Assembly: GCA_045837725.1 (NCBI GenBank)
Contig: JBEWZL010000282.1
Coordinates: 186,001 to 250,000, forward strand
Direction: 5' to 3'
Source of the DNA: Vermamoeba vermiformis
Lineage: Eukaryota
DNA: 64,000 nucleotides
The notes under the pieces are model-generated. The model was not told where the DNA came from, did not search any database, and was given only the letters and a program-made list of their open reading frames with translations. Positions 21,949-48,450 of the stretch are shown piece by piece; position 1 is the first letter of the stretch; each line of letters opens with the position of its first letter. The translations under genes were made by a program, and so were the position numbers.

Positions 21949-23807
21949 ATGACTGAAAGGAGCTGCTCTTCATGCACATTAATCAACTCGCCTACTCGTG
22001 GTAAATGTAAGGTATGCGATAGTAAGCTCGAAGAGGCAAGCTGGAACTGCGATGCGTGCACCTTGATCAATTCGGAGAATGATACAGCATGTCAAGCTTG
22101 CGGAAAATCGCGTCTTAAAAAGCCTAAAATATCGAACGATATTATTATCGACGAAAAAGAAAATTTTGGTATGTTGCAAATATTTAAATTAATTTTTCCT
22201 GGATGGCGCAAAAAAAATTCGAACTTTCGGCCCCCATCTTTCGCCCCCCATCTTTCGCCATTGATTTTAATCCTCTGTACCAACAATATAGTATGCCCGT
22301 CATGCGGTTCATCGTTTAGTTCGCTTCACATCTTCTCAGAACACCTAGAATTGCACGATCAGCTGCACCAGAACAAGAGCGAAGGTTATCTGGCCCAGTA
22401 CAAGCGACGCGTGGAGAGCGCGGTTCAACGTAATGTTATATCCTCCTCGTTCGGCAAACGCAAGATAGCAGAGTTAGACGAGCACATGCGCGGAGCAGAC
22501 TCAGAAACAATGACCAAAGGTACGCGTGCTCGATCTGACCTAAACTGACTTAGTTAAGCAATCAAAGCGAATCGAATGATACGCATTCTTACTTTTATCT
22601 CGGTTGATTATGTTACGAGCTAATTTAAGCACGTCAGGAATTAACTTCGAACTTTAGGTTTGATCTCGCTTCTAAATAAGGCGCTGAAGGGTCAGGGCAA
22701 GTGGAAAGACATTATCATGTGCAGTGACACGGGTACGTTGTAGTGGAGGAATTTGTGCTCCGATAGCGCGATGACATTTGCCACGGAACAATTTGGTGGA
22801 TGCGCCTTGCCTCGTTTTGCGCAACTGATCTGACGTGTATTCTTCCTTAGATTACTTCTCCAGTGGATTTGGAGACATGGGCTGGGGATGTGGCTATCGC
22901 AATACACAAATGATCTGCAGCGCATTGATGAACAACGTTGCAGCATTTAAGTCTTGTCTGTTCGGCGGATGTGGCTTCATACCATCAATCCTCGGGCTAC
23001 AAGGTATGGGAACGATCCAAAAGCTATATATTCATATATTTTGCGTCTCGTGATATCACATTCTGATCCACATTTGTAGAATGGTTGGAAAAAGCGTGGA
23101 AAAGCGGCATTGATCCCGACGGAGCAAACCAGCTCGGCCATGAAGTCTACGATACTAAGAAATGGATTGGCACGTCTGAGATGTACGCTTTGCTGACTAG
23201 CTTTAGAGTCAAGTAAGGATGCTGTTCGAGCCGTTACGCGGTTTTTTTCTTACGTATCTGGCTTTGGCGAATTCGCAGTTCTAACGCAGTACTGCAGGGT
23301 CGAGGTCATCGATTTCTATTCGAAGCGGCTGCCGGATGACGTCATTGAGCAGGCTCGGATGAAGGCCCCGGACAAAGAGCCGAAAAAGTATCGTCCTAAC
23401 AAAGCCATGATGCAGTGGATTTGGTCTTACTTCAACGACAGAAAGGACCAGGAGTTCATTCCCCCGCTCTACTTCCAATACGATGGTAAGTTTATAACTA
23501 TTGATACTTAAAATGGCAATTCTGAATCGGGGCTCGTTGTTACGTAGGGCACTCGTTAACCATCGTAGGATGCGTTCGAGATTTTAAGAACAACGTCGAC
23601 ATTGTGCTGTTTGACCCGTCTGTATGGAGCAGGAAGCAAAAGCCTAAGATAGAGGCGGGCACTGTTCCCTCTAAACTTAAGCGCACGATCCGCGGCATTT
23701 GTCGCGATAAATACCAGATCGGTTTTATTGCTAGCGATAAGCCAGAAGCTGAAAATTATCCTGCTGCCAACAAGACTTTTAAAACGACGGCGATTTACAG
23801 TGATTAA
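21949..23807 (+). CDS. ZUP1: ZUP1/ZUFSP-family (peptidase C78) deubiquitinase with two RanBP2/NZF fingers and a C2H2 finger
   Basis: GDMGWGCGYRNTQM catalytic Cys motif, KWIGTSE, PPLYFQ..GHSLTIVG, LFDPS. Confidence 0.85.
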
Positions 23808-24448: not shown

Positions 24449-25314
24449 ATGGAATTAGTGATGGCTTACGAAGATAACAGCAAGAAGCGAAAGGCTCCCG
24501 AGACGTTGCTCGAATTTAGCGACTACATTGCACCAATTTCTTACAAGAAGCAAAAGACTTGGCATTCCGAATCTCTTACCGATGCAGATGGCACAATCAT
24601 CCCGCCTTTCTACACCGTTGGCGAACTGATGGGTTTCAACTTCGACTTCCCTGAACTACCTTTGGACGAAGAAAGTCCCTCTGGTTCATCGATCGAAGAA
24701 GATGTGTCTGTTGGTGAGGAAGCATCCACTCCTGCGGACTCGCCGGATCTGTCGGCGACTAAGAAGAGAAAGAAGGGCCGTCCAGTTAAATATCAAGTTT
24801 ATCCTTCCGACTTCGACATTACCGTAGTATTGCAAGACACTAGATTCGATGAAGAGAACTCCTGTCCCAACAAGACCATCATTCGGGCCATTAAGTATAC
24901 TATGGACAACAAAGCAATTTTGCAACGCAATGTTTCATCTCTTATTGGCGTTAGGTAAAGTTTAACGGGAATATTTCGTTCGCAACCTTTACTGATCGGA
25001 TTACGTAACTAGCCCCAGTACCTTAAGTTTGTATATGAACGAAACCAATCGACAGAATGGCTGGAGGACATTTGAGAAAAAGGCTTTGAGTTGGTTGAGG
25101 AAAGTTTGGGATGTGCGCCCGATCGAACAAGGTAAGTTGAAAGCTTTGATCTTATTGCATCATACAAATTCATTGAGCATCATAATACTATTCAAATACC
25201 ATACTTCAAGTATTTAGTTTCGATTCTAACCCCGAAACTGACCGCGATTTTTTTCGAGTCGCAGATTCTCCGTCCTACCCAACTGAATTCCCTGAGGATG
25301 TATTCAACATGTAA
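24449..25314 (+). CDS. KRKAPETLLEF-family putative HTH DNA-binding protein, copy 1
   Basis: Exons 24449-24954, 25013-25131, 25265-25314; contains LQRNVSSLIGVSPSTLSLYMN...GWRTFEKKALSW. Confidence 0.8.
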
Positions 25315-27293
25315 TAGTGTTTCTACATGTCTCATAGATGTATATAGTGCGATTTTTTTGAATAAACCTTGTATTATTAGTGCGAAATCGTGTCACACAT
25401 TGTCAAACCGAAACTGATTTAAAATTGTAACGAGCTCTGTTATCTTGTAGAGGCGATAAGGGCATTTTATAGAATGGGAATAAGAAGCAAAAATGGGACA
25501 GGATAAAATTGAGAATATACTGCAATTGCCGCAAGTGGGTGACGGATCCTACGGTAAAGATAGTCGGTCGGTAAGATCACCGCTCTATATGACCCCTTAT
25601 TGAATAGTGTCCTTTCCTTAATACCCGATAAACTCAATCAGGGTCGTCCAATAGGATAGCGAGGGGCAGAAAATTAAAAGAAAACTCGCCCCACGAATCA
25701 CACGCTAAAAACAGACTGCTGCTTCTGTCATGAATCAAGTTTCATTTTCGGTCCAAGATATTCTATTAAATCTAGACTCGCAAGATAACACAGTGAGGGT
25801 AATCATATTATTGGGTCAGTTTACTGTGGGATCTAAGAAGCTTCTGGATCTGCCGAAGATGGTGTGAGCCAGATGCGTTAAGTAACCCTAAATTTAGGAG
25901 GGCACTTTGTATAAGCTTTTTATAGGGATTAACTATTCATGAAGCAGTTTCCGGCCTCAATGTCGAATTCCGCGATCAAGTGTCAGATCCGATACGAAAA
26001 CTGTCATTTTTTATGTCACCGCAGTACCCATGGGCAAAGAATCGATCACAAATCTGGACCGAAGTGCGCTTTTCTCAAGCAAGGAACTTCCAGGTTGATG
26101 ACGTCCAGCAAATCGACATCCATTTTATTGCTAACCTTCCATTTTAATTCGTTACGGCGCCGCGCTCATTCCCTAAAAACCAGGATTACAGATTTAGCTA
26201 TTTTGAAAGTGAAGCGCATTTGAATTAAATTCTTACTTGTTTGGTAATCTGCGCACGGTTGCTTTCGCCTTAGTTATCGTTATGTTTTGCGAAAATATGG
26301 GCTTTAAGAAAGTTACGAGCAGCCGACCACGTAGAGACTAGTTGTCCGAACTCAAAGTTGCAGAGATCTTACCGAATCAATGCCTCGTACTTCTTGTTAC
26401 GATCGTTCTGTCGTGACCGAACCTCCTATTGCCATCACTATTAATTCATTTCTTTGCCCCAATCGTTAGATGCGCTCAATCTCCGCTAAAGTGGTGGGAA
26501 CGGGTCCTAAAAAGGTTACAACAAGTTAAAATTTTATCTCGTGGCAAAAAACCAATCTGCCACGTGTTGGTAACAGTTCATTCGAATAAATGTCAACGTT
26601 AGCACACGAAGAACATACAAGTGCAGCTGGTGAAAGCAATTTTCGAGTCGAATCTCTCTTGGATGCGTGCACTACACTACAAAACAACTTCGGTGACATT
26701 GGTGCGCTAAAGATAACGTAAATAATAAGTGGCCTATTATTTTTGTGACGAGGTAGCGCTCGCAAGTTAGCGGTACGTTAATTCATGATTTTTAGCTTCA
26801 CCCATCTTGATGGTAATTGAATTTGATTGTAAAAATTATTGTAATATCGGCTGCCGTGGCGAATCGTTGATTTTGGTAATTTTTGTTGAACGAAATAATG
26901 CAAGTTTTCTATTAGATTTGTTCCTGATATTTTTTGTGAATACCGCTTCGACCATGGCACAGTTAATCACATATATATTACATATCTTAGATTTTAGCTA
27001 CTTTTTTGGTGTTATAATACGCAATCAAGTTTAAAGCGTGCAAAAAAATTTGGCGCTCAGCAGATTTGCTTACCAATCGTAGAACTACATTTAATATTGA
27101 CGACCATCCTTGCATTCCATTAAATACTTAAAGTCTATTATATATGTATCGCGAGAGGGTCGTTTGACTTGTTGTGTTCCGATTTTGCATTGATGATTTT
27201 ATTAGTCTATTTATTTTTGATAAGAGGACAATAGGTCCCTCAATATAATGTCTTGTATATAGTATATGTAATATTAGATAACACTATTTAACA

Positions 27294-30200
27294 ATGATCA
27301 AGTCAAGAAGCAATTCAGCCAATGCAAATGTCATGTTAAATGTTTCAGCGATCAAGGCATCCAATGTATCAAAAATATATGTGACAAGAGGCAAAAGAGC
27401 CGGCATATTCGAAATAGTAAGTGAATAATATAGGCAATCCGCATAATTGCGTTAAATTCGCTATTATGCAAACTTATTACTCGCATTGAAATAATTTCGG
27501 TGACATCCGCAATCTTTTTTGAAATTCTTGATTTAAATTCTTATACTAGGACGCTAATTAATTAAATATATAACATGCAAATACTTTATGACCGAGTTAT
27601 AGCGTCAAGTCTCATTGTGACCGAATCTGTGGTCTTCATTTACTACACCTCATTTTGCTAACATTATTATATTATAGTTATGCGCAGTATTTATATTCAT
27701 ATTAAGCGCATTTGTAATATTGGGACCGTTAGCCGGATTCTTGATCTTCCTCGCTATTGCCTTGCTAACCCTAACCTCTGGCATTCTGACCTTAATATTT
27801 GCATTGAAAAGGAGTCACTTATTGGCCGTTCATGCGGTAAGACGAAGCAAATATAACGCATACGAGCTCAACCGATTTTATTGCAATTTCAATAGATCCG
27901 ATTCTGACGTAATCTAATTTAATTTTGTATCCAAAGTTAGCTTTATAATATAGCTCAATGTGGTAATAACAGTACAAAATTTAATTTTAAAATAGCCTAA
28001 TTGTAAGAGCGGAATGTCAAGTTTTATTTTCGGAACAATTTCTTAGTTGTTCCAAATTGATTTCGAGCTCTAATATCACTATAATCAGATATAATATGTA
28101 CTCTATAATGTCGTTTCGATAGAATGAATCAATGGACGAAATTTAACAATTTTTTTCGTTTGTTCATGGGATCTATTCTGGATCTGTCGTGGATCGCACT
28201 TTGAATGCCTCAATAACGATTACTAATTCTATTTATATCATCATAGGAGTTCGTATGGATGATAATATCGATTGGAATCTCATTAGTCATCTTGATCCTC
28301 GTTTGTGTTGGGGTTGGTTTTTCATTTGAATGTTTGATTGATTTGGGCGGGCTTTGCAATTTAATTGCGCGCGCAGTTTTAGTCGCCGTATTCACTGCAG
28401 CATATTTTGCCTTAAAAGTAAGTAATAGATGAATATACAAAATTTGTTTGGTTCGTTCAATCGAACCACCGAAAATTCAATCAAAAATTAAATTGAACGG
28501 GAAAAAAAATCACAATGATAATGCGCAGTTATTATAATACAATAATTAATGGCTTTATTTGTAGACGCTCAGTTTTTACAATGTATTTTTAATGCGAAGA
28601 GAAGTTACTCGTAACCAAAGCATTTGTAAGTACAATAGATCACTCAATAATATGCATATATCGATATAATATCTTTGAATAGTAATATCAGACATTAAAC
28701 TTCTTGACTTGTCGGTAATTTGACGAAGATATTTTCGATTAAATTGTTCTAAAATTAGACACCTGTCAAATTGACACGTGCACGTGTCATTAATTAACGC
28801 CATTAATATACCACTATTGATATTGACTTGTGTTATTAGTGTTCGAAAAGCCATTCGATACAAGACTAGTGCCTACACATAGGTCAGTGGACGAGGAGTT
28901 TTCCGTGTCTGAGGACTTGACCAGTGAAGACGAAGGCACTGTCTCAGAGCGACAAGATGAAGAGAATGTCAAGCATAGGTAAGTAGTACAATACTGTCCC
29001 GTTGCGTGAAATATCAGCAAAGACTCATTCATTGCAACTGTTCTAGTGTGGTGGATCCTGTTCAACAAAACCGAGAAATTGCGATCAAACGATTCAATGT
29101 TAAGCCTAAACGAGGCATTGAGTTCTTAATCGAGTCGAAATTGATCGATGATGCTGGTGAACGAGGAGCTCATCAAGCAGTAGACTTTATACTCGAGGCT
29201 GGCGATAAGATCAGCAGATTTAAGCTCGGCGATTACTTGGGCGAAAGGTAGGTGCCGTTAACTTCCGTTAATAACCGCTGGTCGCGGTGCTACGTGTTGC
29301 CATGTGCTAACTTTGACTCGTTTAGTGACACCTTCCCGACACTTTTCCGCAACGATTTCGCGAACAGATTGAACTTTTATCAAGTTGAAATCGATCATGC
29401 GCTAAGGTACCGACACCTCATATTCATAATTAATATGTACATGTATTCCTGACACGTTGTTAGAATGTTTTTGACCAAGTTTGTGTTGCCGCGTGAGACC
29501 GAAAAGATCGATCGTGTGATGAGCGCCTTTGCTCACAAATTCTACTTGGACAATCCCACGCTGTTCAAGAACGAAGGTACATATCATTTATATCATATAT
29601 AGACCTCTAGTATATTGTAGTAGTTAACCATAGTAGCGCGAACATGATACCTAGCAACCTCGATTTTTTCGTGTTACTAACGATTGTAATGTTATTAGAT
29701 ACGGCCTATATTCTCAGTTTCTCGTTGATTATGTTGCACACTGATGCGCATAATCCTAACGTTAAAGAGAAGTTCACTAAGGATGGCTGGATCCACAACA
29801 ACGACAGAATTGATGACGGCAAGGACTTGCCTTATGAGTACTTGAGTCAATTGTACGATAGAATAGGTATGTTACTCATACATGATAAGTTTATATTAAA
29901 ATTCAAAGTTGGTTCACTCGGCCAAACAGATCTTAGAAAATATAATCCAACCGTCTGGATCTTAAAGAATCATGTTATACTAACGTCGCTTATTAAATAG
30001 TTGCCGAGGAGATTATGTTCTCCAACGTAGATAAGCGAGGTTGGTTGCTCAAGCACGCGCGTAATGCTGGTACGTTGAGTTTGTAACTGAAATTAATATG
30101 AAGAGATGTAGTGACGTCAAAGTGAGTCTAATGGTCTATGTTAAATAGGTGGTGGTCCTGCTAAGCCCTGGAAGAGACATTGGTTCGTGCTTTCGGACAA

Positions 30201-31760
30201 TTGTCTGTACTATTACGTCGATCCAGCGGTAAGTTTATTGGCCAGATGAACAGTAAAAAGGCAAAATTTAACTTACCTTATACTAAAGGATCGAAGCTTC
30301 CGTGGCATGATCCCACTTGAAGGTGTGCAAATAGCCAAAGCTTCTCACGTCTCTAAGCCTCACTGCATTCTACTTTACGATCCGACAACAGCGAATCTGA
30401 AATCGGCCAAATTGAAGTAAGTACTTGATCAAGCTTGATGATGAATATTGAGTCCATATATAGCGGTCAAAGTCATGAATCATATGACTCAATCCACAAC
30501 AATTTTGATTTTTCGGCTAATTTTTTCGATGAATTTTTATTGACCTTTGTTATGCAGATCCAATGGTCAATTAGAGCGAGGTGTGCACGAGTTCTTCTTA
30601 TTAGCATGTTCTAGCGACAAGGAGCGCGCAGAGTGGCTTGAAGCTTTGCAGCGAAATGTTAGTCGCGATCCGTTCTACGACATTATCAAAACCAAGCTGG
30701 CTAAGATGGATAAAAAGAAGTTTGGTAAGTTAATATGAACTGTATTAATATGTCTTTCGTAAAAGTCATTCAAATTTTTGATTTTATGCCCAGATTCGTA
30801 CTGTAAATTCAATTTCGTTTCTTTCTTGTATTTGCACCGCTTAAGCTATTTTTCCGCATTAATACGACCAATATATGCTAATGTGACTATTGTTTAGGCA
30901 CTACAAGCAAGAGTACTGCTACAACTAAGCGCTCAAGAACGGCATCTGTTTCAGAAAAGCGACCAGATGGCTATGGACGCGATAGAAAGCTGACCGATGC
31001 TACCTTCACGCCACCTAGCAACAAGAATAGCAGAAGAAACTTGATTGATGAGAGCCATGGCAAACGAATCTCAGTGGATGCTGGCAGCTACCAAGATTCG
31101 AAACTCATTAACCTTGAAGTCTCTCCTCGTAAGACTAGTAAGTATTAACATCACATTTGAATATGATTATATCTACGCTATGTTATTTAGAAGTTTTGAA
31201 GTTGAATCCGCTACGTTTTATTACTTGATCTTGTTATGCCGCGTTATCTAACGAAATTTATTGTAGACTATGAAAAAGATGAATATGAAGATAGCGAAGT
31301 CATCAAGCAAGTTAAAATTAAGACTGAACGCTCCCATAAGAAAGAGAAGAGTTCGGATGGAACCCCTAAAGCGACTGCAAAAGACAGCCAGAGGGCTCTT
31401 ATGGATAGCTTTAAGAAAGAGAGCATACTTGAACGAGTAGACGATCAAAGTGGTGTATCTCCTCGAGAAGAAAAGTCGAATCCGGTCAAGAGTTCTGGAC
31501 ACAAACGAAAAATCTCAATAACCAACTCGTTAATATCGGAAGGCATCAAACTCGAAGGAGAACTGCCCATAGAGCCCGTAGAGATCAAAGAGGTGCCTGC
31601 AATCCAACCTATAGTCGCTGATAAAGAACTTGAAGTCGACGAAGATCCTGAAAAGAAAATGCCGTTGACTGATAGCGAGCATATACGCCAAGACATTATT
31701 GAGATTAAGAAGGACCTGAAGGACTTGTCGAGTAGTGGTTCCGATTCATCTTCCGAATAA
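27294..31760 (+). CDS. Sec7-PH (cytohesin-like) ARF GEF with a multi-pass membrane N-terminus
   Basis: Sec7 motifs [45 protein letters not shown] motifs [21 protein letters not shown]; upstream hydrophobic exons splice in frame. Confidence 0.8.
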
Positions 31761-32730
31761 AAAAAATATGGATGCGATCCAACAATCAAAAAGGAAAAGT
31801 ACTTCTAACCTCATGCGATATTAATTGTAAATAAAAAATAGGTTATCATACAATATACGCGTTACTTAAGTTACATAGCTCGAATATGCTTTGTAGGAGG
31901 GTGCCTAGAATGCCAGAAGATCCCCTTTCATCGACCTACAACTCGCTGCGGAATACAGACCGGATAGACTGTTCGTAAGCAAGCGTGGTAGTGCATTGTG
32001 TAACAGGTAATTTTTTGACCACTGCTTCTATGACTCGCCGAAAAATCTCCGAGCAAGATTGACTTCGATAAATTACTTATTTTAGAAAGTCAAGTTACAT
32101 TTGGAATTCAAGCTTGTGCCACTGTCCTGCTAAGAGCATTTCTCAGTAATGGGGGTCACATCATTCTCAAGAACGAATTTTTTTTCATTCGGATATGTTG
32201 GAGCCGAACCTACCTACCGGTACAAATTCTCCGTGAAGACTTCAGATCGGACATTTATTTCCAAATTTAGGAACTATTCCCAAGCTCGTGCCACGGTCTC
32301 CAGTATCCCGTAGATTGGTTAGTTTGCCTACTTATGCTAATTCCAAAAACCCCCGAGCAGATGAGCCGCATCTGCTTTCGACGATCTCGAAAATCGAGAT
32401 TATCCGAATTGTCCGTAGCCATGATAAAATAATATCCGATTTATTGACATGAATGACGGTCTTGCAGGTAGCTTCATATGAGGTAAAATCTCACTGTAAT
32501 CACAGAGCACGTGCTGAGATCTACCAGGGCACGTAGCAGCCACGCACACGCTGAAAGAATTTTCGGTGGATCTCGATATTTTTTATCAGTACTTAACGTA
32601 GGTCCTAACTAACGAGATTTGCGGAGAATCTCTTCTTCGCAGCCACCGTTTGCATTCAAATAAAATTGAAAGGAAATTTACTTATCGATAAAGAATAGGA
32701 TACAAATTGATACTTCGGATATGAGATGCA

Positions 32731-33686
32731 TCACATACGCAGGTCTAGTAGGTAGTTATACCCTAGTGCTAGCGGTGTTATGTATCCTTCTTCTGCGTAG
32801 TAAGCCGGGTACGAGATCTGCGAACAAGAAGCAGCAGGTATGAAGTAGACCGGGCTCAACAGTTCATTAGGCCAGCCACGCGTCAACACTATACAACACA
32901 CCTATTACTATTTATGCACTTATCAACGACTATAGAGGTGTACTTACATGGAGCGGAACTTTGCCACGGGCGCATGTTCGGATATTGCTTGGGTCGGACC
33001 AAATGTCGCACGTAATCAATCAGCCGCCGCTCCAATTCTCGCCAACCATGCTGCCTGGGTGTATTGTTCATATAGAGACTGAACGTGCTCGGACTATCGC
33101 AATAATATTTACGTTAGTTTAGGCAAGAGATATCGCCGATTTTGGCAACTACGAAACTTTGGCCCGAGAAGCATTGCCCGCAATTAATTAAGTGCAAGAT
33201 TGAATGCTGCTAATTGAACGAACATTACCTTACGCCCAGCGCGTCAGACACGTCTTTCTGATGGACCCTCATATGCTCCACAAGCCATTTTATCGCTCGA
33301 ATTAATATCCTAAGCGGCGTGCGGCAATTCATCGGCTTGTCACACAGAGGGTCGTGCGCTATAATCAATTCAATATCGAATTCATCTGCTGATTGATTTC
33401 TTTTCTTTGATTTTTTCGGGCTCGCTTCAGGCGTGCTAGTCGTCACACTTTCCATCTCAAAACTATCATCCAAGCTGCTATTGACCGGTGATTCTACGGG
33501 CGAATAATCCACGGAAGAGTTCGGGGACGGTATCGGCGAACAAGTTTCAGAACTGTCGAGCAATTGTCCGGCTCGGTCCGTCCATCCATCAATACCCGCG
33601 TCATTGGCCAGCCTTCTCCGTTTGTTTCGCACGGGGATAATATAATCGCTGAATTCTAACAGCGTTTCTGGTGCTTTTCGTTTCAT
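32731..33686 (-). CDS. KRKAPETLLEF-family putative HTH protein, copy 2
   Basis: MKRKAPETLLEFSDY start; QKDVSDALGVSPSTFSLYMN; Tyr-rich third exon similar to copy 4. Confidence 0.8.
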
Positions 33687-36416
33687 GGTGTTGTTGTGCA
33701 GTGTTTTGGTTGAAATAAAATTAATCTCTGAATTCGGGCAAAATCGTCGAGTGTTTGCACAAATTGTTGTATCTTCCGTGTAATCTCAAACTATTATATC
33801 TTATTATGGCCTAATTGAGGCTACGACGGGCAATTTTGGTCCGAAAAGTAAAAATAGTTCTTCAGCTCGCCTTCTATATATGACGAATTGACTTTAAACA
33901 GGTCCTGTAGACATCATTAGCACCAATTTATCGATATTTATCGTTCGCGTACCGTCACGTTATTGAATTTAATCGTTTTTTTGATTGCCCGCGCAAACGG
34001 ATAGAAGGTTGAGAGGTCCAAGTCGTCATCCAAAATCGACCTATCCACGCTTCATAATTGAGCACCGGAGTTATATCCTATACACACTACGCTAATATGA
34101 CGCATTGCGATAGGTTAGTAGCGCTAATTCCTTTTCTTCGTCCGCCGGGATCTCGGCGAAACCCGCATCCGAGTTGCTTTCCAAAATTGCTTCTCTTCGG
34201 TCCATATCCAATAGTAATAACTATATTATGACTATATAATTATAATGCCCTAGCATTCCGGGCAATGCGGTGCGTTTTAAAGCAAAGCTAAGCGGTGAAA
34301 AAAGTTGCACAAATATGGAAATGCCTCATTTTCTTCTAAGCGCAATACTATTCAGTCCTTAACTATACAGCGGGATTACACGATTGTTGCTGCAAAAATG
34401 AGGCCATTAGTATCATATTATTCATCAGCCTAGCGAACCTACCACCGCATCCGATTTCTAAAGGTAGGCATTGTAGTATCTAATCCTCCACTTGTTTTTA
34501 ACATCCAAATAGGCGTTGGAATAATTGCAGACTATCAGCAAATGATCACGATAAAGTTGAATGTTGGTCCAGGATCAAGGCGAAACTAATCAGTGTGTCA
34601 TTAGCTGAATTACAAGAGGGATTAGAAAGGTATTATTAGTTAAATAACAATTAAATATTATTAAATAAGTCATACATATTCAAATTCGACCATTTGTAAC
34701 AGACTTGAGGGAAATTGGCGCGAGATCCTGAAACTTGCTCGGATAAGCATGATTTCTCTGGAAATTAGCGTAAGTACCATCGCATACTATAATAGACTTT
34801 CAGTTTACGCTTACTACTCGTTCTTATAGCGACATGGCGTATAATCGTTCCCAGTGCCAAGCCAGGGAACGCATCCAGGACGAAATCTGATGAGGACGGA
34901 GCTCGACCGGAAAGTTTTCGAGAATTTGAAGCAACTTTGCCGAAAGAAAGCAGGAGTTTATCTTCCTTTAAAGGGCTTAGGTACGTTCCTAAAGAAGAAA
35001 TTTTTGTTTAGCTGATGCAATGAGATCGACGGATAATTGAGAAAACGGTGGGATAATGTGAAACAAATTGCACTTTTCCCAACCAGTTTGGTCCTTCAAT
35101 CTTTTTGAGCTTTTGTTAAAAAAAAAACTGACCTTCGATCGACTTTGAAAAATTGTGATTGGATTACGGTCGTCGAAATTGCCTAGAAATAAGCAGATAG
35201 GCTGGATAAGCATCATAGATGATACTATGATGGTTAAAACAGCTTTTCCGCAACTTCACCAATTTTAAATGGTGATAAAATAGTCTCGATCGTACCTTTG
35301 CCATTGTAGAGACGTTCAAACCAAGCTGAATTGGCCTCGGACGGTGGTAGTTCGATTCTAAAACATATAAAACAACATGTCATAAAGATTTGCACCTTTG
35401 GCAGTTGTCACTAGCTTCAAACGAGTTACGCGACTAAACTAACCATTTTGGCGCTTCCCAATTTATCCCTCGCAACGGCTATATATATCCAATACTCCGG
35501 GCATAGTAGGGTCTATTAGACTAGTCGTGGTCTTGGTTGGACGCGTGAAAGTGAATAATAGTTTGAGTTTACTTTTTCGTTTTTTTAACACCGCATAAGC
35601 AGGTAATATCTGCCTGATTGAGCTCTATTCAAGATATTTATTGGCTGTATGATACCACGACAAGCGACCGTCCAGTCCGTGGCAATGTGGTCGGTCAGCA
35701 AAGCCAATAATAAGAGCTCGACGACAAAGCTAAGCTCTGAATAGCTTTAGAAAAATCTATGGATGCTACGTTATATCGAAGAAAAATGCAGTAAGAAAGT
35801 CCATGCTACGCACTTGGTAAGCAGTCAAAGGGCACGAGCAATCAGCTGGCTAATTAAATGAGAATTAAGCTTATTATCATTTCATATCCGGAGCTTCCAT
35901 TACAAATTACTTCTTGCATTATAGCAGATCGGAGCTTGCTGTCATATTTTAGTGGCTTTCAATAGATTGCCGCTATCGTAAGATCTCGTGAGCATTTTGT
36001 TTTTCCGACCCCTAATTACTGGCGGCCATTTTATCCTGAGAATGCCAATATTACACGAAAGAGTGATATATTTAAAGGCTCTGTAGCTGTGGCGTATGTC
36101 TAAGAGAAGCAATTTGTGGTCGATCTCAGTCGCGCGTTGTCACGTTGACGACCCTCACTAAGAAATTCATGGCGATGCCATAGCGTATATGTACATAATT
36201 ATTCTTAGTGATGCGGCCCAGTAGGACCTCGGAATGTTCAGGTCTGATGCAAAATGTCCGAGACATTTCTTGTGTGCCTACGGGACCAAAATTGTGAGCG
36301 TGAATGTTAACAAATATAATTTCAAGTACTTGCAAATAACTTACGCTATACTGTGCCTAGTTATTCCGTCTCTCTGACACGACCCTCGCTACTTGCGTTG
36401 ATTCAGCCATGGCGAG

Positions 36417-37044
36417 TCAGCTCAATCGCGCTCTAAGCCAAGCGTCAATCTTTACTTCTAATTCGCGCCAGCCATGATTTCTCTGCGTCTTGTTTAGATA
36501 CAGACTCAGCGTGCTTGGACTATATTGAAACATCAAAAATGTTAGGAAAAATGATTATACGTAAGTAACGAAGATATTGAATCAAAAGTTGCAAATTACC
36601 CACAAAAGCCTTAATATAGGGATTATATACGTACCTAACATCAAGTTCGTAAGCTACTTCTCGCTGAATCAATTTCTTATTTTCAATCAACCATTTGATA
36701 GCCTCCACAAAGCCATGTATCGGTTCTTTACATCCAAATGGCTTATTTGCGAGTAGGTCGTCGCTAAGGATTGTGTCGATGTAAAAATCTTGCAGCATGG
36801 AGCCGTGGCTGGTGCTTGATCTGTTAGATCCCGCTCCGTAGGACCATTCCGTATCGCCGTATTCTTCGTCGCTTCTTATCTTATTATTAGATTCACAATG
36901 GTAGAGTGCATTTTGACAAGGCGACTCTTCGTAAAAGACTGACTCTTGCGGCACGAACGGTTCTGGATGCTCTACTTTCCTTCGCTTTAGCGGCAAGATA
37001 TATTCGCTAAACTCTAATAACGTTTCGGGTGCTTTTCTCTTCAT
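36417..37044 (-). CDS. KRKAPETLLEF-family putative HTH protein, copy 3
   Basis: Two exons; QREVAYELDVSPSTLSLYLN...GWRELEVKIDAWL; stops right after the domain. Confidence 0.8.
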
Positions 37045-39041
37045 CTTGATGCTTTCTTTGTGCAAATGATAAAGATGAACCGCTTTTTTAAATCAATAAA
37101 AATTGAATCACTTTCCTTATTTAGCAAATTCACGTTCTTTGTCTGCGAAATTTAATAGAGAAGCCAGCGATAGTCGAGGTATTCAGATTACTTAATAGTG
37201 AGGCCCTCATTTTGTGACATACCGCGTCTTAAGTAACCATTCATCAACGCTCCAATTGCACCATAAAATTGAAGAAATATCATCTACAAGTACTTACCAA
37301 ACAGAAATTAACGTACATTACACCAATAGCCCATCTCTACTCGGTCTTGGACTTGGCTAGCATTGTCTTGATTAACGCTCCAATAAGTACACAATGTCCA
37401 CGTGAGTACTTCCACGACTGTATCGTCCATCGTCATATCGATTCTCATTGTATAGGTTGAGACGGTGTCCTGGTGTGTTTAACACAATCTCGTGTAAACT
37501 TGTCCAGTGGTCGCAAGTTCGGTCACCTGACTCCTCGTTTGAGGTTCAAACAAATAATAATTTTAAAATCATCTATTTCTCCTCGAATCAACCACAAAAA
37601 ACGCATTTACGCATACAGATAGTTCGAGTGTTATATTCATCATCATACAGCCGTTTGCGCAGCGATCGATCTTCTTCTTCTAAAAGACCACGTAAGTTAG
37701 TAATTATCACAACAAAAGCAGAATAATTATAATTTTCGATTCTTATGAACGATGGTTTGTCACTCAATACAAAACATCAATTCATAATATTTATATTTAA
37801 CATGATTTATTATTTTCGTTGGATGGGCTTGTATTTAAACGTTGAACGGTTAATCTTATATTTACATATTAATTTATGATTTAATTATTCAAATTTGCAA
37901 AAAATGGTTGTTGAAATACGAAATAAATCTGACCTTTTCACCAACGCGGACTTGTCGGAACGTTAACTTCTCACCCTCTTACTTGATTATATGCCTTGTG
38001 GTATATCATGATAAAGGATCATTTATGTTTGAATAGCGGTGCAGAAATTTACAAATAGGATATTCTGTACGCGCACATCCGACTAATGCAGGAAGGCCTC
38101 ATTACTCCAAACGAAGAAGCCAATTATAGAAAGCGCAAGATTAGACAACTACACTCGATAGTTGCAATATGGATCGATATCTGGGCCTACCAGCTTCGTA
38201 TTCCCGGATGCAAGTGGCATACGCAAAATAGAGCGCCGCATCGCTTGCTCGACTAGTAGAGCAGAAGATTGACGTATGAAATAACGATATTGGTACATAA
38301 AGGCAAGTATGACATGGCTAACTGCTTTTTTCATTGAATAGGAAACCGGTGGCAGCGCACGGTAAAGCCACCGCAACGACTAACTGCTAGCGTGTATTGG
38401 TTGCTAGCAGATCCCATTGGCAAGTCGGCAAGCAATTGCATTGTACAATTAATGCGAACATTAATTAACGTTAAATCTTATCACAGAACTAAATTTGTAC
38501 AAAAGGGCATCCGCAAACATTTCAATTTACAGAACGTAAAAAATGTGTTCCGGATTTACAAATTCGGATTTTTAGAACCTCCCGAAGGTAGAGTTTGAAA
38601 ATATCAAGCCCTATGGCTGTCGAAAGAAATTATAATCTCCGATTAATTCTTAAAAATAGCAGCAAAGTATACAAGCTCCGTGGATTCGCGCGAAGGAATT
38701 TCGTAAGTACGTTAATGCCTTGAGGCAAATATTTAAATATAAGCACTACATGTTACGTTTGCTTGACTTTGTAATGATGCAGGATGGTACTGTCGACAGG
38801 GTGTGTAGTTCGTCTTAATTTGGAAATTAAGTATTAAGGATGACGTTCACTGAATCTTAAACGGCATTTCCGAACATGTTCAAAAGGCCGAATAATTGCA
38901 ATTGTGACAAGCCGAGAGAACTTTTCCGCTACCAAGTAAGCTCTACTCTTTCCCAAGAACTACGGATGCACCCGCATATGGTGTCAAAATTTCAACTTAG
39001 TTTACTTTCTATTTTACATCGGTTTCTAAAGTACATTATAT

Positions 39042-39901
39042 TTACATATTCAACTCCAACTGAAAGATAGTTTGAGGATAATAATACGGTTGGTACGAGA
39101 TCTTGTCATTGAAGTACGCGCCGTAGTCGGGTTCTTGACTCCAACCATTATATCGTAGTTCAGGTTCTAAAATTAGCTATTAGAATCGAATTCAATAACT
39201 TTACTCGAATTAGGACTTACGTGAGGGCGATTCTTGCACGGGTAAACTTCGCGGAGTTAGATGCTGCTTGGCGTTGAAGACAGATCTCATCCAACCAATC
39301 AATTTGCGCTCTAGTTGCTTCCAGCCATGTTGTCTAGGCGTATTGTTCATATAGAGGCTCATCGTGCTGGGACTACAGATGAAGCGGATTATTTATTGCT
39401 CGCGTCACGAGAGGTATGTTTAGCGATTTCAAAATAGATACTTGACATGCGCTGAAAGGAATAATTATCTAATACTCACCTGACTCCAAGTGCATCTGAA
39501 ATTTCCTTCTGCAGGATCCTTTTGTTCTCTGTGATCCATTTAATGGCGTGTACAAGCGACTTCAGCGGTTTGCGGCTATTCGAGGGCTTGTCAGCGAGAG
39601 GATCATGAGCTAAGAACTCTTCAATATCGAAGTCATCTGTCGAGCTAACACTGTTACTGCGTCGTCGGTGAACAGGTGGCGAGTTCGCGACTTCTTCGAG
39701 CAGGTCGGATTCGCTGCTGTTTTGATAAGACGGCGATGACACCGGTGAGCTGTTGAAATCTGATTCATACGAGTAGTCGTATAACTGATGCGAGGCGAAG
39801 GCCAGCGGCTCTAATGGCTCAGGAGTGAACTTGAACTTCTTGTTTACGGGATGCAGGTAATCGCTGAACTCGAGTAACGTTTCGGGTGCCTTTCTCTTCA
39901 T
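39042..39901 (-). CDS. KRKAPETLLEF-family putative HTH protein, copy 4
   Basis: Three exons; QKEISDALGVSPSTMSLYMN...GWKQLERKLIGW; Tyr/Pro-rich tail ending LELNM*. Confidence 0.82.
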
Positions 39902-41645
39902 TTTTATTATGACCGTTAGTCTTGTGGTACTCTACAGAATGCTTTCAATTTGAATGCTAATGGGTGCGGAATGACCTTTTTGTGGCCCGCAGCCATTAAT
40001 CAATCTCGCGCAATCTCTACCAAAAATAGGCAACAACTTAGCGAATCTATACCAAATTAGTATTTGTGAGCTATACTTGGCGCATCAAAAGCCCGTTAAT
40101 CGGAATAATTTGTACGGGCTTGCACGCTCTTTCAACGTTAACAAAATTTCATATTGTGAACCCATTGTAAAATCAAAAGGATGCGCATAGCCATAAAAGT
40201 AAATTTAGGGAAACGTATCGTATTTGTTGCGCTCTGATCACGCACACATGCGGAAAAATGCTTACTAAGCGTGAGTGCTGTGGATCTGCCATGTTTCGTA
40301 ATAACAGCCTCCGCTTGTTAGGAGTTTACTGAGTATACCAAAACTTTGCGAAATTGCATTCTAAAAATACTTTTGGATTTATTTAAATTTAGCCGAGTCT
40401 GATGGCGTGTGCCGATGATCTTTTCGATAATAGTGTAGGATTAATTAATTTTTATTTGGATTACGAGCTCCTTCCGCACCTACGGAAGAAGGAAGAAGGT
40501 CACGCTTGGTATCACCTCAGCATTGAAAAGGCAGAGCCAACGATAGAGAAATGCCTATGGTTGTACTATAGAAAGAGCATGAGGTAATGAAAGTGCTTGC
40601 GATCTAAATTATTCACTTAACCTTAAAAATCAACGGACCTTTTTAAATCTTGCCAGGATGATTCTTTATTATTTCTATATGATCAGCCATTTAAATGTAA
40701 CTGAATCATGACAATAGAACGCTTCAAAGCAAAATTTCGTGCAAGGGCCGAGTTGGCACGAATTTTTTTATTTCAAACGATTCTCCCTTTGAAACCATCC
40801 CCACAACACTGGTTACTAACATTAATAATATAATGAGCTTTATTATAGAGCATCTGGTTAACGAACCATTGCCGAAAGGAATATTGCAAGATGAGGGCAC
40901 CAACACGTCATTTCTCCGGAGAAATTCATTTTCATATACTGCTTGCCACCAAAATAAGCAACCGAATATTGTTAGAATCTTTAAATGGTACGTCGCTAAC
41001 AAGATTTCAAAAATGAGGATAATTTCAAATCCGGGTGGAAATAAAAATAATTGGACTTCCTGATACAATTAATAACAGCTACAATTATCATCGCACCTAG
41101 AGGAAAAATTAGATTTTTGCGGTGTGGCACATCTTGTTTTACTGATGTTGCAGTATTTCAATCTTTGTTGCCACGCGACTTTATGTCATTGATTGTATGC
41201 AAAACTCCCGAAGTTCGGCTTCCTGCAGCTGATTATTCAGTTCATGATCACCTTGGAGCGAGGCATCTGCGTCACTGAATTGACGCATTTTAAAATCAGT
41301 TAATTCCGCTGGTAATCAATCAATACCGATTCTATTGCTCTATTATATTATGTCGTAAACGCGTAAAACGTGCACACTAAACGAGTTTGATCTTTTTGTG
41401 GCCTTGTGAGATCTCGTTAGCCGTTTGCCGCGGGTGAGGCAGATCGAGTTGCACGATTTGGCCTCGTTATGTCATGACAGCAAGAGAGAAGATAAGCGAG
41501 AAAAAGATTGCATGTGCAATCAAATGTCTATCTCCTTCTACAAATCAAAGATTCTCTCAATAACTTACATTTATTTTACATCCGGTTTGATTTGACGTCT
41601 CAAAGCATTCTAAAGCATATTTACATCGGTATTTTACGTCTTATA

Positions 41646-42312
41646 CTAGGATTGGCTGCTTAACGACTTGCTGCTTTCGCTTTCGCTGTTTTCCTTTTCG
41701 TCTTTATTCTCCGCTCCTTCTTCGTCTTCATTCAACGTTCTAATCCAATCGATTAGCTTTCGTTCTAGATCTTTCCATCCATGCACTCGAGGAATACAGT
41801 TCAGATAAAGACTAAGGGTGCTAGGGCTGTCAACCATGTTAGATGTGATCTCATTTAGCGAGTATTTAATTAATATCAGTCTTTTCGCGACGATCCTAAT
41901 TTATAATAATAATAAATTATTACCTAACGCCGAGAGCTTCCGATATATCCCGCTGCAGCATCTTTTTATTCTCTAAGATCCATTTAATCGCTATTAACAG
42001 AGTTTTATGAGGTAATTTGCTATTTGGCGGCTTTGTTGCGACAGGGTCCAAGTCGTATACTGATTTGATATCGAAATCCGATGGGACTTCGACGTTTTCC
42101 TCTTCTTTGCCTGATGAATTTTGGGGATCGCTAGATCCGTCGTAAACTTCCAAGTGCAATGACTCGGATCGATCTTGAATATTATTGGAATTTAATTGAT
42201 GCGCATCTGAGCTATTGTTCGTGTCGACAGACGACGTCCTAAACTTTTTCCATTGTGTTGGGATAATATAATCAGAAAATTCAAGAAGCGTCTCTGGTGC
42301 TTTTCGCTTCAT
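41646..42312 (-). CDS. KRKAPETLLEF-family putative HTH protein, copy 5
   Basis: Two exons; QRDISEALGVSPSTLSLYLN...GWKDLERKLIDW; acidic tail. Confidence 0.82.
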
Positions 42313-47985: not shown

Positions 47986-48096
47986 AGTGCACTAATATTC
48001 GACAATGCATTTGACGTTTACGACTTCCAGTTGCATCCCGTACTCTGAAGCACAATGATAAATCATTCTATCCTCTTATTTGGGGATTAAGCGCGT

Positions 48097-48395: not shown

Positions 48396-48450
48396 TCGTA
48401 GCACGAGAACAGTGCAACATTACAAATTCCGTTCTGTTATTGATGCATCA

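What the first reader, a model, noticed from the sequence alone, without database searches (positions are those of the whole stretch)
24449..42312. Five-gene local family of stand-alone lambda-repressor-like HTH proteins (candidate undescribed transcription-factor cluster)
Seen: five paralogues (24449+, 33686-, 37044-, 39901-, 42312-) share two conserved blocks separated by a divergent Ser/acidic linker. The ~80 aa C-terminal block reads roughly FDI..(L)..DP...KP.....P...L..AIKW..E.K...Q..(I/V)S..LGVSPSTLSLY(M/L)N...R..GW..LE.KL..W. All five have the same phase-2 intron inside the Ser of (G/D)VS|PST, which is why the ORF track hides the domain. Knowledge: Q..IS..LGVS.STLS.Y.N is the Cro/C1 (lambda-repressor-like) HTH pattern. 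From memory it also resembles the HNF1/HMBOX1 POU-specific-like domain (DP...IK......IPQREV...G..QS.LS..LN...W), CUT domains and the phage MuB N-terminal HTH. In animals the eukaryotic members usually come with a homeodomain; none is present here. Inference: a lineage-specific family of homeodomain-less regulators. The near-invariant recognition helix (SPST(L/F/M)SLY) suggests a shared DNA target, with different tails providing different outputs.
Basis: partly seen in the sequence, partly recalled or inferred. Interest (0 to 1): 0.85.

Follow-up and report, generated by a model that had tools for sequence, protein, structure and literature searches.

The report
Cluster of stand-alone HNF1-like HTH genes
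Five neighbouring, spliced and expressed genes encode small proteins whose C-terminal domain folds like the phage-repressor-type DNA-binding domain of animal HNF1, POU and CUT factors but has no homeodomain beside it, so they look like a small, previously unnamed family of gene regulators.

Summary
Five paralogues start at 24449(+), 33686, 37044, 39901 and 42312(-). Each has a GT..AG phase-2 intron (58-135 nt) in the same Ser codon, which splits a helix-turn-helix. Three database proteins from relatives (P0023, P0024, P0032) carry exactly the predicted exon junction. An intron-less contig set (X1) covers all five genes and shows the g2 junction. dN/dS of g1 against an orthologue is 0.02-0.05.

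An AlphaFold2 model of the g4 orthologue gives a confident domain (pLDDT 84-94). Its best structural neighbours are the MuB N-terminal domain (Z 8.8), HNF-1A (7.6), POU-specific (6.9) and CUT domains (6.7). Sequence matches stay below Pfam cut-offs: HNF-1_N E 1.3e-4 and HTH_3 E 1.4e-3. No homeodomain was found.

The family is tiny, with 8 clusters among 1.84 billion representatives.
- second introns in g1, g2 and g4;
- a third conserved block, a C-terminal tail, in g1, g2 and g4;
- truncated public gene models.

DNA binding and regulatory function are inferred, not shown. Verdict: a real, new stand-alone variant of the lambda-repressor-like / HNF1-POU-CUT type of domain. Interest is moderate. 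The organism is unknown.

The parts
24449..25314 (+). g1, 224 aa: exons 24449-24954, 25013-25131 and 25265-25314; introns 24955-25012 (58 nt, phase 2 in the Ser codon) and 25132-25264 (133 nt). The start may instead be the ATG at 24461.
   Evidence: The orthologue in L003 has the same intron position and the same tail. dN/dS against L003 is 0.05 for exon 1 and 0.02 for exon 2. An X1 contig covers 24307-24729. Intron 2 is predicted from GT..AG and tail homology only.
32731..33686 (-). g2, 253 aa: exons 33686-33229, 33093-32948 and 32888-32731; introns 33228-33094 (135 nt) and 32947-32889 (59 nt).
   Evidence: Intron 2 is seen as joint 32888|32948 in an X1 contig. The intron-1 junction is seen as a loose end at 33095. 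The public proteins P0012 and P0016 stop at the intron.
36417..37044 (-). g3, 170 aa: exons 37044-36635 and 36519-36417; intron 36634-36520 (115 nt). It has no C-terminal tail.
   Evidence: The spliced orthologue P0032 (174 aa) reads across the same junction and also ends just after the domain. An X1 contig covers 36835-37020.
39042..39901 (-). g4, 232 aa: exons 39901-39480, 39372-39221 and 39166-39042; introns 39479-39373 (107 nt) and 39220-39167 (54 nt).
   Evidence: The spliced orthologues P0023 and P0024 (228 aa) match all three exons, including the tail. X1 depth is 2.16 in bin 39400-40003.
41646..42312 (-). g5, 189 aa: exons 42312-41924 and 41826-41646; intron 41923-41827 (97 nt). It has an acidic/Ser C-terminus and no tail motif. 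The 3' end is unverified.
   Evidence: The orthologues P0014, P0015 and P0017 are exon 1 only. An X1 contig covers 42094-42361.
39222..39606 (-). Example of the lambda-repressor-like domain, in g4: about 81 residues, from the D-F-D-I block to the end of helix 4, interrupted by intron 1. The turn and the recognition helix lie at the intron.
   Evidence: Model of orthologue P0023: helices 92-97, 113-125, 130-137, 141-148 and 158-176, pLDDT 84-94. Across 8 full-length sequences 18 of 81 columns are invariant, and 10 of them lie in the turn plus helix-3 stretch. The start coordinate is approximate.
39854..39901 (-). Example of the N-terminal 16-residue motif, in g4: a basic K-R-K followed by an acidic/hydrophobic stretch. 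It is invariant or nearly so in every family member.
   Evidence: Alignment A1: 11 invariant columns within the first 15 residues across 12 sequences.

Best explanation
These are five real, expressed, intron-containing paralogous genes of a small lineage-restricted family.

Each protein has four parts:
1. An invariant 16-residue N-terminal motif: a basic K-R-K, probably a nuclear-import signal, followed by an acidic/hydrophobic stretch that probably docks a shared partner.
2. A divergent, disordered Ser/acidic linker.
3. An 80-90-residue lambda-repressor-like helix-turn-helix domain of the HNF1 / POU-specific / CUT type. It has one short N-terminal helix and four main helices.
4. In g1, g2 and g4 only, a short aromatic/acidic C-terminal tail.

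Most likely they are sequence-specific DNA-binding transcription regulators. Helix 3, which is nearly invariant and starts right at the conserved intron, would enter the major groove. The invariant Gln at the start of helix 2 would hold the backbone, as in phage repressors and POU-specific domains. Because helix 3 is almost identical in all paralogues, they would recognise similar sites. The linkers and tails would give different outputs: tail-bearing g1, g2 and g4 against tail-less g3 and g5.

Shown: the genes, the splicing, purifying selection, the fold class, the absence of a homeodomain, and the narrow distribution.
Inferred: DNA binding, nuclear location, partner binding, and any division of labour between paralogues.
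For: Genes and splicing. The same phase-2 GT..AG intron occurs in 5 of 5 window genes and in 3 of 3 copies in L001 and L003. The junction is read through in P0023, P0024 and P0032. X1's contigs skip five GT..AG introns in the neighbouring Sec7 gene, so the run behaves as cDNA. They cover all five genes, have zero depth in the intergenic bins 25508-27319, 37588-38191 and 40004-41211, show g2 intron 2 as a joint, and show the g2 intron-1 junction as a loose end.

Selection. dN/dS of g1 against L003 is 0.05 over 162 codons of exon 1 and 0.02 over 39 codons of exon 2, with dS about 1.7.

Fold. AF2 with the 25-row alignment gives pLDDT 84-94 over residues 90-176. In VIA-align against 48,161 chains, rows 1-9 and 11-15 are, by their entry titles, lambda-repressor-like HTH domains: MuB NTD Z 8.8 (65 of 65 aligned, rmsd 1.6), HNF-1A Z 7.6 (80 aligned, model 91-181 against chain 96-181), Oct4 6.9, HNF-6 CUT 6.7, SATB1 6.7, Brn-5 6.6. 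Foldseek's listed hits are MBF1/EDF1, HNF-1A (prob 0.99, 24% identity), MuB NTD, HigA, C-proteins and HipB.

Sequence.
- Pfam HNF-1_N E 1.3e-4 for P0023 and 1.4e-4 for P0024.
- HTH_3 E 1.4e-3, plus HTH_37 and HTH_31, for P0032.
- ESM Atlas nearest clusters HNF-1_N 0.83 and CUT 0.82 and 0.79, a lead only.
- JGI/IMG's automatic name for P0023 and P0024 is 'transcriptional regulator with XRE-family HTH domain'.

Conservation. 18 of 81 domain columns are invariant in 8 full-length sequences, 10 of them in the turn plus helix 3. The Gln at the start of helix 2 is invariant in 12 of 12 sequences.

No homeodomain. Pfam lists none for P0023, P0024 or P0032 at E up to 10, and the window has no helix-3 signature.
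Against: No experiment or computation here shows DNA binding.

- All sequence matches to known HTH families are below Pfam's gathering scores: 22.9 against 29.7, and 19.1 against 23.
- HNF-1_N is not hit by P0032.
- PDB sequence searches with single proteins and with three profiles gave only chance hits.
- Foldseek gave no hit with E <= 0.001.
- VIA's own note says Z under 8 can reflect a common helical arrangement.
- The model is of an orthologue about 80% identical to g4, not of a window protein. Its alignment has only three rows that span the whole domain.
- Lambda-like HTH domains also serve non-transcriptional roles, such as MBF1/EDF1 on ribosomes and the MuB NTD.
- No shared upstream motif was found among the five genes.
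- X1 is labelled 'RNA?' only as a guess, and the g2 junction rests on one contig with 12 letters beyond the junction.
Confidence: 0.6

Rival explanations
1. The domain has the lambda-repressor fold but is not used for promoter recognition. It binds another protein, RNA or the ribosome, as MBF1/EDF1 does on collided ribosomes. Alternatively it binds DNA non-specifically or drives oligomerisation, as the MuB N-terminal domain does. In that case the proteins are adaptors, not transcription factors.
For: The best Foldseek rows are MBF1/EDF1 in ribosome entries, at E 1.3e-2 to 3.1e-2. The best VIA row is the MuB NTD at Z 8.8. The most conserved non-domain element is a short N-terminal linear motif typical of partner docking. 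No common upstream motif suggests autoregulation.
Against: The MBF1 alignments have rmsd 13-14 Å, and no MBF1 family appears in the Pfam lists. The strongest conservation sits on the turn and helix 3, the DNA-reading surface in all characterised relatives. The best sequence-level match is a bona fide DNA-binding domain, HNF-1_N.
Confidence: 0.17
2. The family descends from a bacterial, phage or mobile-element XRE-type HTH acquired by horizontal transfer and then expanded by tandem duplication. Its likeness to HNF1, POU and CUT would then be convergent or merely fold-level. This concerns origin; the function could still be regulatory.
For: - Very narrow distribution: 8 clusters among 1.84 billion.
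- The g3 orthologue's best Pfam matches are bacterial-type HTH_3, HTH_37 and HTH_31, with TnsD at E 0.045.
- JGI's automatic XRE label.
- The top structural hit is a phage transposition protein domain.
Against: - Every copy has spliceosomal introns, one at an identical position, so duplication followed intron gain.
- Eukaryote-type neighbours rank above bacterial XRE proteins in VIA: Z 6-7.6 against about 5.
- The N-terminal extension helix aligns with HNF-1A's over 80 residues.
- No transposase or other mobile-element gene lies beside the genes.
- No prokaryotic protein was retrieved at E <= 0.001 by the profile search.
Confidence: 0.15
3. The copies are decaying duplicates or mis-assembled repeats, and the apparent introns are chance.
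For: - Public gene calls stop at the intron (P0012, P0029, P0014 and others).
- One related genomic copy, L001b, carries an in-frame stop where P0031 has Trp.
Against: - dN/dS of 0.02-0.05.
- Spliced database proteins.
- Coverage by intron-less contigs.
- All five reading frames are intact across their exons.
- Orthologues exist for each of the five paralogues in other records.
Confidence: 0.02

Closest known systems
HNF-1 N-terminal region / HNF (POU-specific-like) domain of HNF1A, HNF1B and HMBOX1 (Pfam PF04814)
   Same: It is the best Pfam match of the g4 orthologue: E 1.3e-4, protein 14-150 against profile 24-157 of 175. The structural match to HNF-1A is Z 7.6 with 80 residues aligned, including the extra N-terminal helix. 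Both have the layout short N-terminal element, acidic/Ser linker, HTH domain. The HNF domain is described as about 90 residues with five helices (PMC4901127, passages read).
   Different: The score is below the gathering cut-off (22.9 against 29.7), and the g3 orthologue does not hit the family. No homeodomain follows. The N-terminal motif was not matched to the HNF1 dimerisation segment. Identity in the structural alignments is 19-24%.
POU-specific domain (Oct1, Oct4, Brn-5)
   Same: Four-helix lambda-repressor-like fold: Z 6.9 (Oct4), 6.6 (Brn-5) and 4.9 (Oct-1 NMR).
   Different: There is no Pfam POU match at E up to 10. According to the 2015 review, the POU domain has not been found independently of a homeodomain (PMC4901127, passage read). 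Here the domain stands alone.
CUT and CUT-like domains (ONECUT/HNF-6, SATB1/2, CUX2)
   Same: Z 6.7 (HNF-6), 6.7 and 6.3 (SATB1), 6.0 (SATB2) and 5.5 (CUX2). The ESM Atlas neighbours score 0.82 and 0.79, a lead only.
   Different: There is no Pfam CUT match. There is a single copy per protein and no homeodomain. The fungal TF survey lists CUT and HD+CUT combinations in animals only (PMC5415576, passage read).
N-terminal domain of phage Mu MuB (PDB 2mqk)
   Same: It has the highest structural score: Z 8.8, rmsd 1.6 Å, 65 of 65 residues. Foldseek gives TM 0.77.
   Different: Identity is 15-17%. MuB's domain is followed by an AAA+ ATPase, which is absent here. No transposition genes lie nearby.
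Bacterial/phage XRE (HTH_3, Cro/C1) regulators and eukaryotic MBF1/EDF1
   Same: They belong to the same fold superfamily. The g3 orthologue hits HTH_3 at E 1.4e-3. Many XRE, antitoxin, C-protein and Aca structures score Z 4.5-5.5. JGI's automatic label is XRE.
   Different: The scores are below the HTH_3 cut-off (19.1 against 23). Unlike typical XRE domains, this one has an extended N-terminal helix and a long loop between helices 3 and 4. No MBF1 N-terminal family is hit.

Membership tests
HNF-1_N (PF04814) | Sequence score at or above Pfam's gathering cut-off (29.7 bits) | tested here: not met
   P0023 scores 22.9 bits (E 1.3e-4) and P0024 22.7 bits. P0032 has no hit at E up to 10. The exon-1-only window proteins have no hit in 5 of 5.
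HNF-1_N (PF04814) | Five-helix POU-specific-like fold | tested here: met
   The model has helices 92-97, 113-125, 130-137, 141-148 and 158-176 at pLDDT 84-94. VIA gives Z 7.6 to HNF-1A with 80 residues aligned. Both rest on a predicted model of an orthologue.
HNF class (HNF1A, HNF1B, HMBOX1) | Atypical homeodomain downstream of the HNF domain | tested here: not met
   P0023, P0024 and P0032 have no homeodomain family. The window models end 0-80 residues after the domain. The six frames of the window have no WF.N.R-type signature. A search for longer fused forms found none, which is weak evidence.
HNF class | N-terminal dimerisation domain | tested here: inconclusive
   A conserved N-terminal motif exists, but the Pfam alignment begins after it, at profile position 24. 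No homology to the HNF1 dimerisation segment was shown.
HTH_3 / XRE (PF01381) | Sequence score at or above the gathering cut-off (23 bits) | tested here: not met
   P0032 scores 19.1 bits, E 1.4e-3. HTH_3 is not listed for P0023 or P0024.
Lambda-repressor-like DNA-binding domain superfamily (fold level) | Helical bundle with a helix 2 - turn - helix 3 HTH, superposable on phage repressor, POU-specific and CUT domains | tested here: met
   By their entry titles, VIA rows 1-9 and 11-15 are members of this superfamily, and lambda cI itself scores Z 4.7. All Foldseek rows shown in the top 15 are members.
POU-specific (PF00157) and CUT (PF02376) | Sequence match to the family profile | tested here: not met
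   Neither family is listed at E up to 10 for P0023, P0024 or P0032. HMMER's filters drop most matches above E of about 0.1.
MuB | N-terminal HTH followed by an AAA+ ATPase | tested here: not met
   The fold match is Z 8.8, but no ATPase family appears in the Pfam lists, and the proteins are only 170-253 aa.
Sequence-specific transcription factor (functional class) | Binds defined DNA sites and changes transcription | not testable with these tools
   This needs SELEX, DAP-seq or ChIP, plus reporter or knockout assays.

The most novel reading that the evidence does not exclude
The window's introns look fungal or protist-like: short, with CTAAC-type branch sites. If the organism is indeed not an animal, this family would be a stand-alone relative of the HNF / POU-specific / CUT group outside animals. 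That would mean this type of domain existed as an independent DNA-binding module before, or apart from, its fusion to homeodomains. It would give a handle on the origin of three 'animal' transcription-factor classes. The invariant N-terminal motif and the tail would then be the family's own docking sites for a shared co-regulator.
Probability: 0.15. Interest if true: 0.8.

Novelty: new variant of a known kind. Interest (0 to 1): 0.5.

Why it matters
In eukaryotes, lambda-repressor-like domains of the POU-specific, HNF and CUT type are known almost only as partners of a homeodomain. The 2015 review states that the POU domain has not been found without one (PMC4901127, passage read). A survey of fungal transcription factors lists only a handful of homeodomain plus lambda-repressor-like combinations, mostly in zygomycetes (PMC5415576, passage read).

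A conserved, expressed, tandemly expanded family that carries such a domain alone would add a new regulator family to the organism's repertoire. It could also bear on how these domains arose.

There is a practical point too. Public gene calls for this family stop at the intron and so miss the recognition helix (P0012, P0029, P0014 and others). Domain-based annotation therefore cannot see it.

Tried and rejected
- **Pfam on exon-1-only proteins:** nothing relevant in 5 of 5.
- **PDB sequence searches:** I ran A1, P0023, A3 and A4. They gave only chance hits: nup43 at E 9.5, XPF at E 0.57, none, and a lipoprotein at E 0.22.
- **Single-sequence AF2:** unusable, with mean pLDDT 50.
- **NCBIfam:** nothing meaningful.
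- **The search for related loci with A2:** I repeated it with A1.
- **Whole genome:** not held.
- **Earlier findings of this scan:** none by place, sequence or words.
- **Homodimer prediction (two copies of P0023):** no verdict, score 0.00. This is no evidence either way.
- **Search for longer, fused forms with A4:** none among 7,998 scored candidates. This is weak evidence.
- **Shared upstream motifs in 700 nt before the five starts:** one A/T-rich 8-mer in 4 of 5, no better than the maximum seen in shuffles.
- **Naming the organism:** the ESM Atlas look-up on a neighbouring protein gave no taxa. Rfam and ARAGORN gave only two tRNA-Gly genes. The taxon stays unknown.
- **RNA runs:** no RNA holder was listed. 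The raw RNA reads X5-X7 come from a diverged relative: 462 of the 573 laid reads are 90-95% alike, and only 148, 138 and 287 reads were laid. They cover mainly g2 exon 1, so they did not test the junctions.
- **psq / CENP-B / Tc5-transposase-type HTH (my own initial rival):** rejected. No such family appears in the Pfam lists, and no such structure is among the 50 VIA rows.
- **Local profile libraries in the script box:** none present, so I could not run HHpred-like comparisons of the spliced window proteins.
- **Paper searches:** 'PF04814' gave 6 papers and 'HNF-1_N' variants gave 7. By their titles and abstract starts in the listings, none concerns a stand-alone or non-animal family. These two searches and one search are the only basis for saying the family is not in print. 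Supplementary files were not seen.

Full report
**1. What is there**

The window has about 40% G+C and carries ordinary eukaryotic genes with short GT..AG introns. Around the finding lie:
- a RanBP-zinc-finger plus peptidase C78 gene at about 21.9-23.8 kb;
- a Sec7 gene at about 28.4-31.8 kb;
- further out, RasGAP, UBA, ribophorin II and neutral ceramidase genes.

Four begin with the same 16-residue motif. In g1 the motif is preceded by 11 residues, or by 7 if the second ATG at 24461 is used, as in its orthologues. tblastn of the models against the window finds these five loci and no others. Paralogue-to-paralogue E-values for the exon-1 pieces run from about 1e-13 to 1e-43.

**2. The intron**

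Each ORF ends at a donor placed after the second base of a Ser codon (..GT[T/A/C] AG|GT..). An acceptor 58, 135, 115, 107 or 97 nt downstream supplies the third base and continues the frame into the rest of the helix-turn-helix. Four of the five introns have a CTAAC- or CTGAT-like branch site near the 3' end.

The same intron position is present in three further genomic copies recovered from metagenome contigs: two tandem copies in L001 and one in L003. L002 repeats L001a.

Evidence that the junction is used:
- A look-up of cluster members found P0023 and P0024 (228 aa, about 80% identical to g4) and P0032 (174 aa, the g3 orthologue). All three read straight across the predicted junction.
- Run X1's contigs are 99% or more identical to the window for 18 of the 27 laid records. 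They skip five GT..AG introns in the Sec7 gene, so the run behaves as cDNA although its label is a guess.
- X1's contigs cover all five genes and have zero depth in the intergenic bins.
- X1 shows a joint 32888|32948, which is a second intron in g2.
- X1 has a loose end at 33095 whose ten letters equal 33231-33240. That is the g2 intron-1 junction, and this 10-mer occurs once in the laid stretch.

The raw RNA reads X5-X7 belong to a diverged relative and did not test the junctions.

**3. Refined models**

| Gene | Strand | Exons | Length |
|---|---|---|---|
| g1 | + | 24449-24954, 25013-25131, 25265-25314 | 224 aa |
| g2 | - | 33686-33229, 33093-32948, 32888-32731 | 253 aa |
| g3 | - | 37044-36635, 36519-36417 | 170 aa |
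| g4 | - | 39901-39480, 39372-39221, 39166-39042 | 232 aa |
| g5 | - | 42312-41924, 41826-41646 | 189 aa |

The second introns of g1 and g4 are predicted from GT..AG sites and from homology of the resulting tail to P0023, L001a and L003. That of g2 is seen in X1.

g1, g2 and g4 share a short aromatic/acidic C-terminal tail ending in Met-stop, also present in P0023 and L001a. g3 and g5 lack it, as does P0032.

Paralogues are 34-46% identical overall and 42-67% identical in the 81-column domain. Across 8 full-length sequences 18 columns are invariant, and 10 of them lie in the turn and helix 3.

**4. Are they functional genes?**

All five frames are intact. Against the L003 orthologue, g1 has dN/dS of 0.05 over 162 exon-1 codons and 0.02 over 39 exon-2 codons, with dS near saturation at about 1.7. 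Only 40 bases of the 58- and 63-nt introns align as identical. So both halves of the split domain are under strong purifying selection.

Each of the five paralogues has its own closer relative among the database proteins:

| Paralogue | Closer relatives |
|---|---|
| g1 | P0029 |
| g2 | P0012, P0016, P0011 |
| g3 | P0030, P0032, P0013 |
| g4 | P0006-P0010 |
| g5 | P0014, P0015, P0017 |

The five-fold set therefore predates the split of several related organisms. L001 shows two copies in tandem 1.7 kb apart. P0014 (g5-like) and P0020 (g4-like) report the same longest-contig length, 207,075. P0017 and P0021 likewise share 426,967. This fits a conserved cluster, but I did not verify it.

**5. What the domain is**

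*Sequence.* Exon-1-only proteins hit nothing in Pfam. The full-length g4 orthologue hits HNF-1_N at E 1.3e-4: 22.9 bits against a cut-off of 29.7, protein 14-150 against profile 24-157 of 175. It also hits HTH_24 at E 0.002. The g3 orthologue hits HTH_3 at E 1.4e-3 (19.1 bits against 23), and also HTH_37 and HTH_31, but not HNF-1_N. The ESM Atlas puts HNF-1_N (0.83) and CUT (0.82, 0.79) nearest. All are under 0.9, so this is a lead only.

*Structure.* With a 25-row alignment, AlphaFold2 gives pLDDT 84-94 over residues 90-176, with helices at 92-97, 113-125, 130-137, 141-148 and 158-176. The alignment held three full-length proteins plus unaltered exon-1 and exon-2 translations as separate rows. 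The rest of the protein is disordered.

Foldseek finds no hit with E <= 0.001, but every row in its top 15 is a lambda-repressor-like protein:
- MBF1/EDF1;
- HNF-1A, with probability 0.99 and 24% identity over 90 columns;
- MuB NTD, with TM 0.77;
- HigA, C.BclI, HipB and ClgR.

VIA-align against 48,161 representative chains gives:

| Target | Z | Detail |
|---|---|---|
| MuB NTD | 8.8 | 65 of 65 aligned, rmsd 1.6 Å |
| HNF-1A | 7.6 | 80 aligned, model 91-181 against chain 96-181 |
| Oct4 POU-specific | 6.9 | |
| HNF-6 CUT | 6.7 | |
| SATB1 CUT | 6.7 and 6.3 | |
| Brn-5 | 6.6 | |
| SATB2 CUT | 6.0 | |
| Bacterial XRE-type regulators | about 5 | |
| Lambda cI | 4.7 | |

The tool warns that Z under 8 can be a common helical arrangement. 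The case rests on the consistency of the list and on its agreement with the sequence-level hits. No psq/CENP-B, homeodomain or winged-helix structure is among the 50 rows.

**6. Stand-alone status and distribution**

No homeodomain family is listed for P0023, P0024 or P0032. The window models end 0-80 residues after the domain. X1 depth falls to zero soon after each gene. A crude homeodomain helix-3 pattern is absent from all six frames of the window.

A full HMMER scan of 1.84 billion representatives with the exon-1 profile found 8 proteins at E <= 0.001, all family members, and nothing else of any length. Word-based searches found 10, 3 and 0 (longer forms).

One member comes from a transcript catalogue source and others from JGI/IMG, ENA, Logan and NCBI. 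I could not establish the organism. The intron features are fungal or protist-like, which is my inference.

**7. How it most likely works**

*Shown:* the fold class, the conservation pattern, the disordered acidic linker, the terminal motifs.

*Inferred from established knowledge of lambda/434 repressors, POU-specific and HNF1 domains (recalled, not tested here):*
- Helix 2 (130-137) and helix 3 (141-148) form the HTH.
- The invariant Gln at the start of helix 2 and the invariant turn plus helix 3 would contact the backbone and the major groove.
- The conserved aromatic/Gly-Trp loop and helix 4 would pack the core.

Near-identity of helix 3 across paralogues that are otherwise 34-46% identical predicts similar DNA sites.

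The N-terminal motif is invariant at 11 of its first 15 positions in 12 sequences. It combines a basic triplet, a likely nuclear-import signal, with an acidic/hydrophobic stretch of the kind found in activation or docking motifs. The tail has the same character. Tail-bearing (g1, g2, g4) and tail-less (g3, g5) members may therefore differ in output.

Whether the proteins dimerise is open; the dimer job gave no verdict and is reported only under Tried and rejected.

**8. Comparison with the known, and novelty**

The family works like a POU-specific/HNF-type domain and belongs at fold level to the lambda-repressor-like superfamily. It fails the sequence cut-offs of HNF-1_N and HTH_3 and lacks the homeodomain that defines the HNF, POU and CUT classes. 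I therefore do not file it as a member of any of these.

The review PMC4901127 (passages read) describes the HNF domain as about 90 residues and five helices upstream of the homeodomain. It also says the POU domain has not been found independently of a homeodomain. PMC5415576 (passages read) lists homeodomain plus lambda-repressor-like combinations in 7 fungal genomes, mostly zygomycetes, and CUT in animals only.

Three paper searches found nothing on a stand-alone family of this kind. Supplements were not available. The only existing label is an automatic 'XRE-family HTH' on two JGI/IMG proteins.

**9. Verdict**

I rate it a new variant of a known kind: real and well supported as a gene family and as a fold, with function inferred. 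Interest is moderate at 0.5. It would be higher if the organism proves to be a non-animal and a profile-level link to HNF, POU and CUT is confirmed.

Noticed in passing
window 48114-48184 (-) and 54460-54530 (+): Two identical-scoring tRNA-Gly(GCC) genes lie in inverted orientation about 6.3 kb apart. Each sits inside a longer repeated stretch: the ORF translations at 48062-48526 and 54217-54597 share long similar strings beyond the tRNA. This could be a segmental inverted duplication or a tRNA-linked repeat.
   Followed up: no
window about 34000-35800: A transcribed locus lies between g2 and g3 with no recognisable ORF family. X1 and the relative's RNA reads cover it. There are minus-strand joints at 34604|34676 and 34587|34676, and 'opposite strands' joints at 35346-35429 that suggest a hairpin or inverted repeat.
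   Followed up: no
L001 7414-8019 (copy L001b) against protein P0031: The genomic copy has an in-frame stop where the database protein P0031 has Trp. This could be a polymorphism, a pseudogene allele, or a small unrecognised intron.
   Followed up: partly
public proteins P0012, P0029, P0014, P0008 and others: Public gene calls for this family, including NCBI- and JGI-sourced ones, end at the stop inside intron 1. They therefore lack the recognition helix, which explains why no domain is annotated on them.
   Followed up: yes
window 21877-23800 (+): The gene upstream of g1 combines a RanBP-type zinc ribbon (E 6.9e-7) with a peptidase C78 domain (E 1.6e-12). By recalled knowledge of that architecture, this is a ZUFSP/UFSP-like cysteine protease.
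   Followed up: partly
window 28400-31800 (+): A Sec7-domain gene separates g1 from g2. It has at least seven short introns, seen as joints in X1 and X5-X7. One joint, 30719|30897, has non-canonical GT..TA ends and four extra letters in the diverged relative's reads, which is probably an alignment effect of divergence.
   Followed up: no
window 16811-17257 (+): An ORF carries teneurin-like EGF repeats, all below the Pfam cut-offs (E 1.4e-4 to 6.5e-4). It may help place the organism once a genome is available.
   Followed up: no
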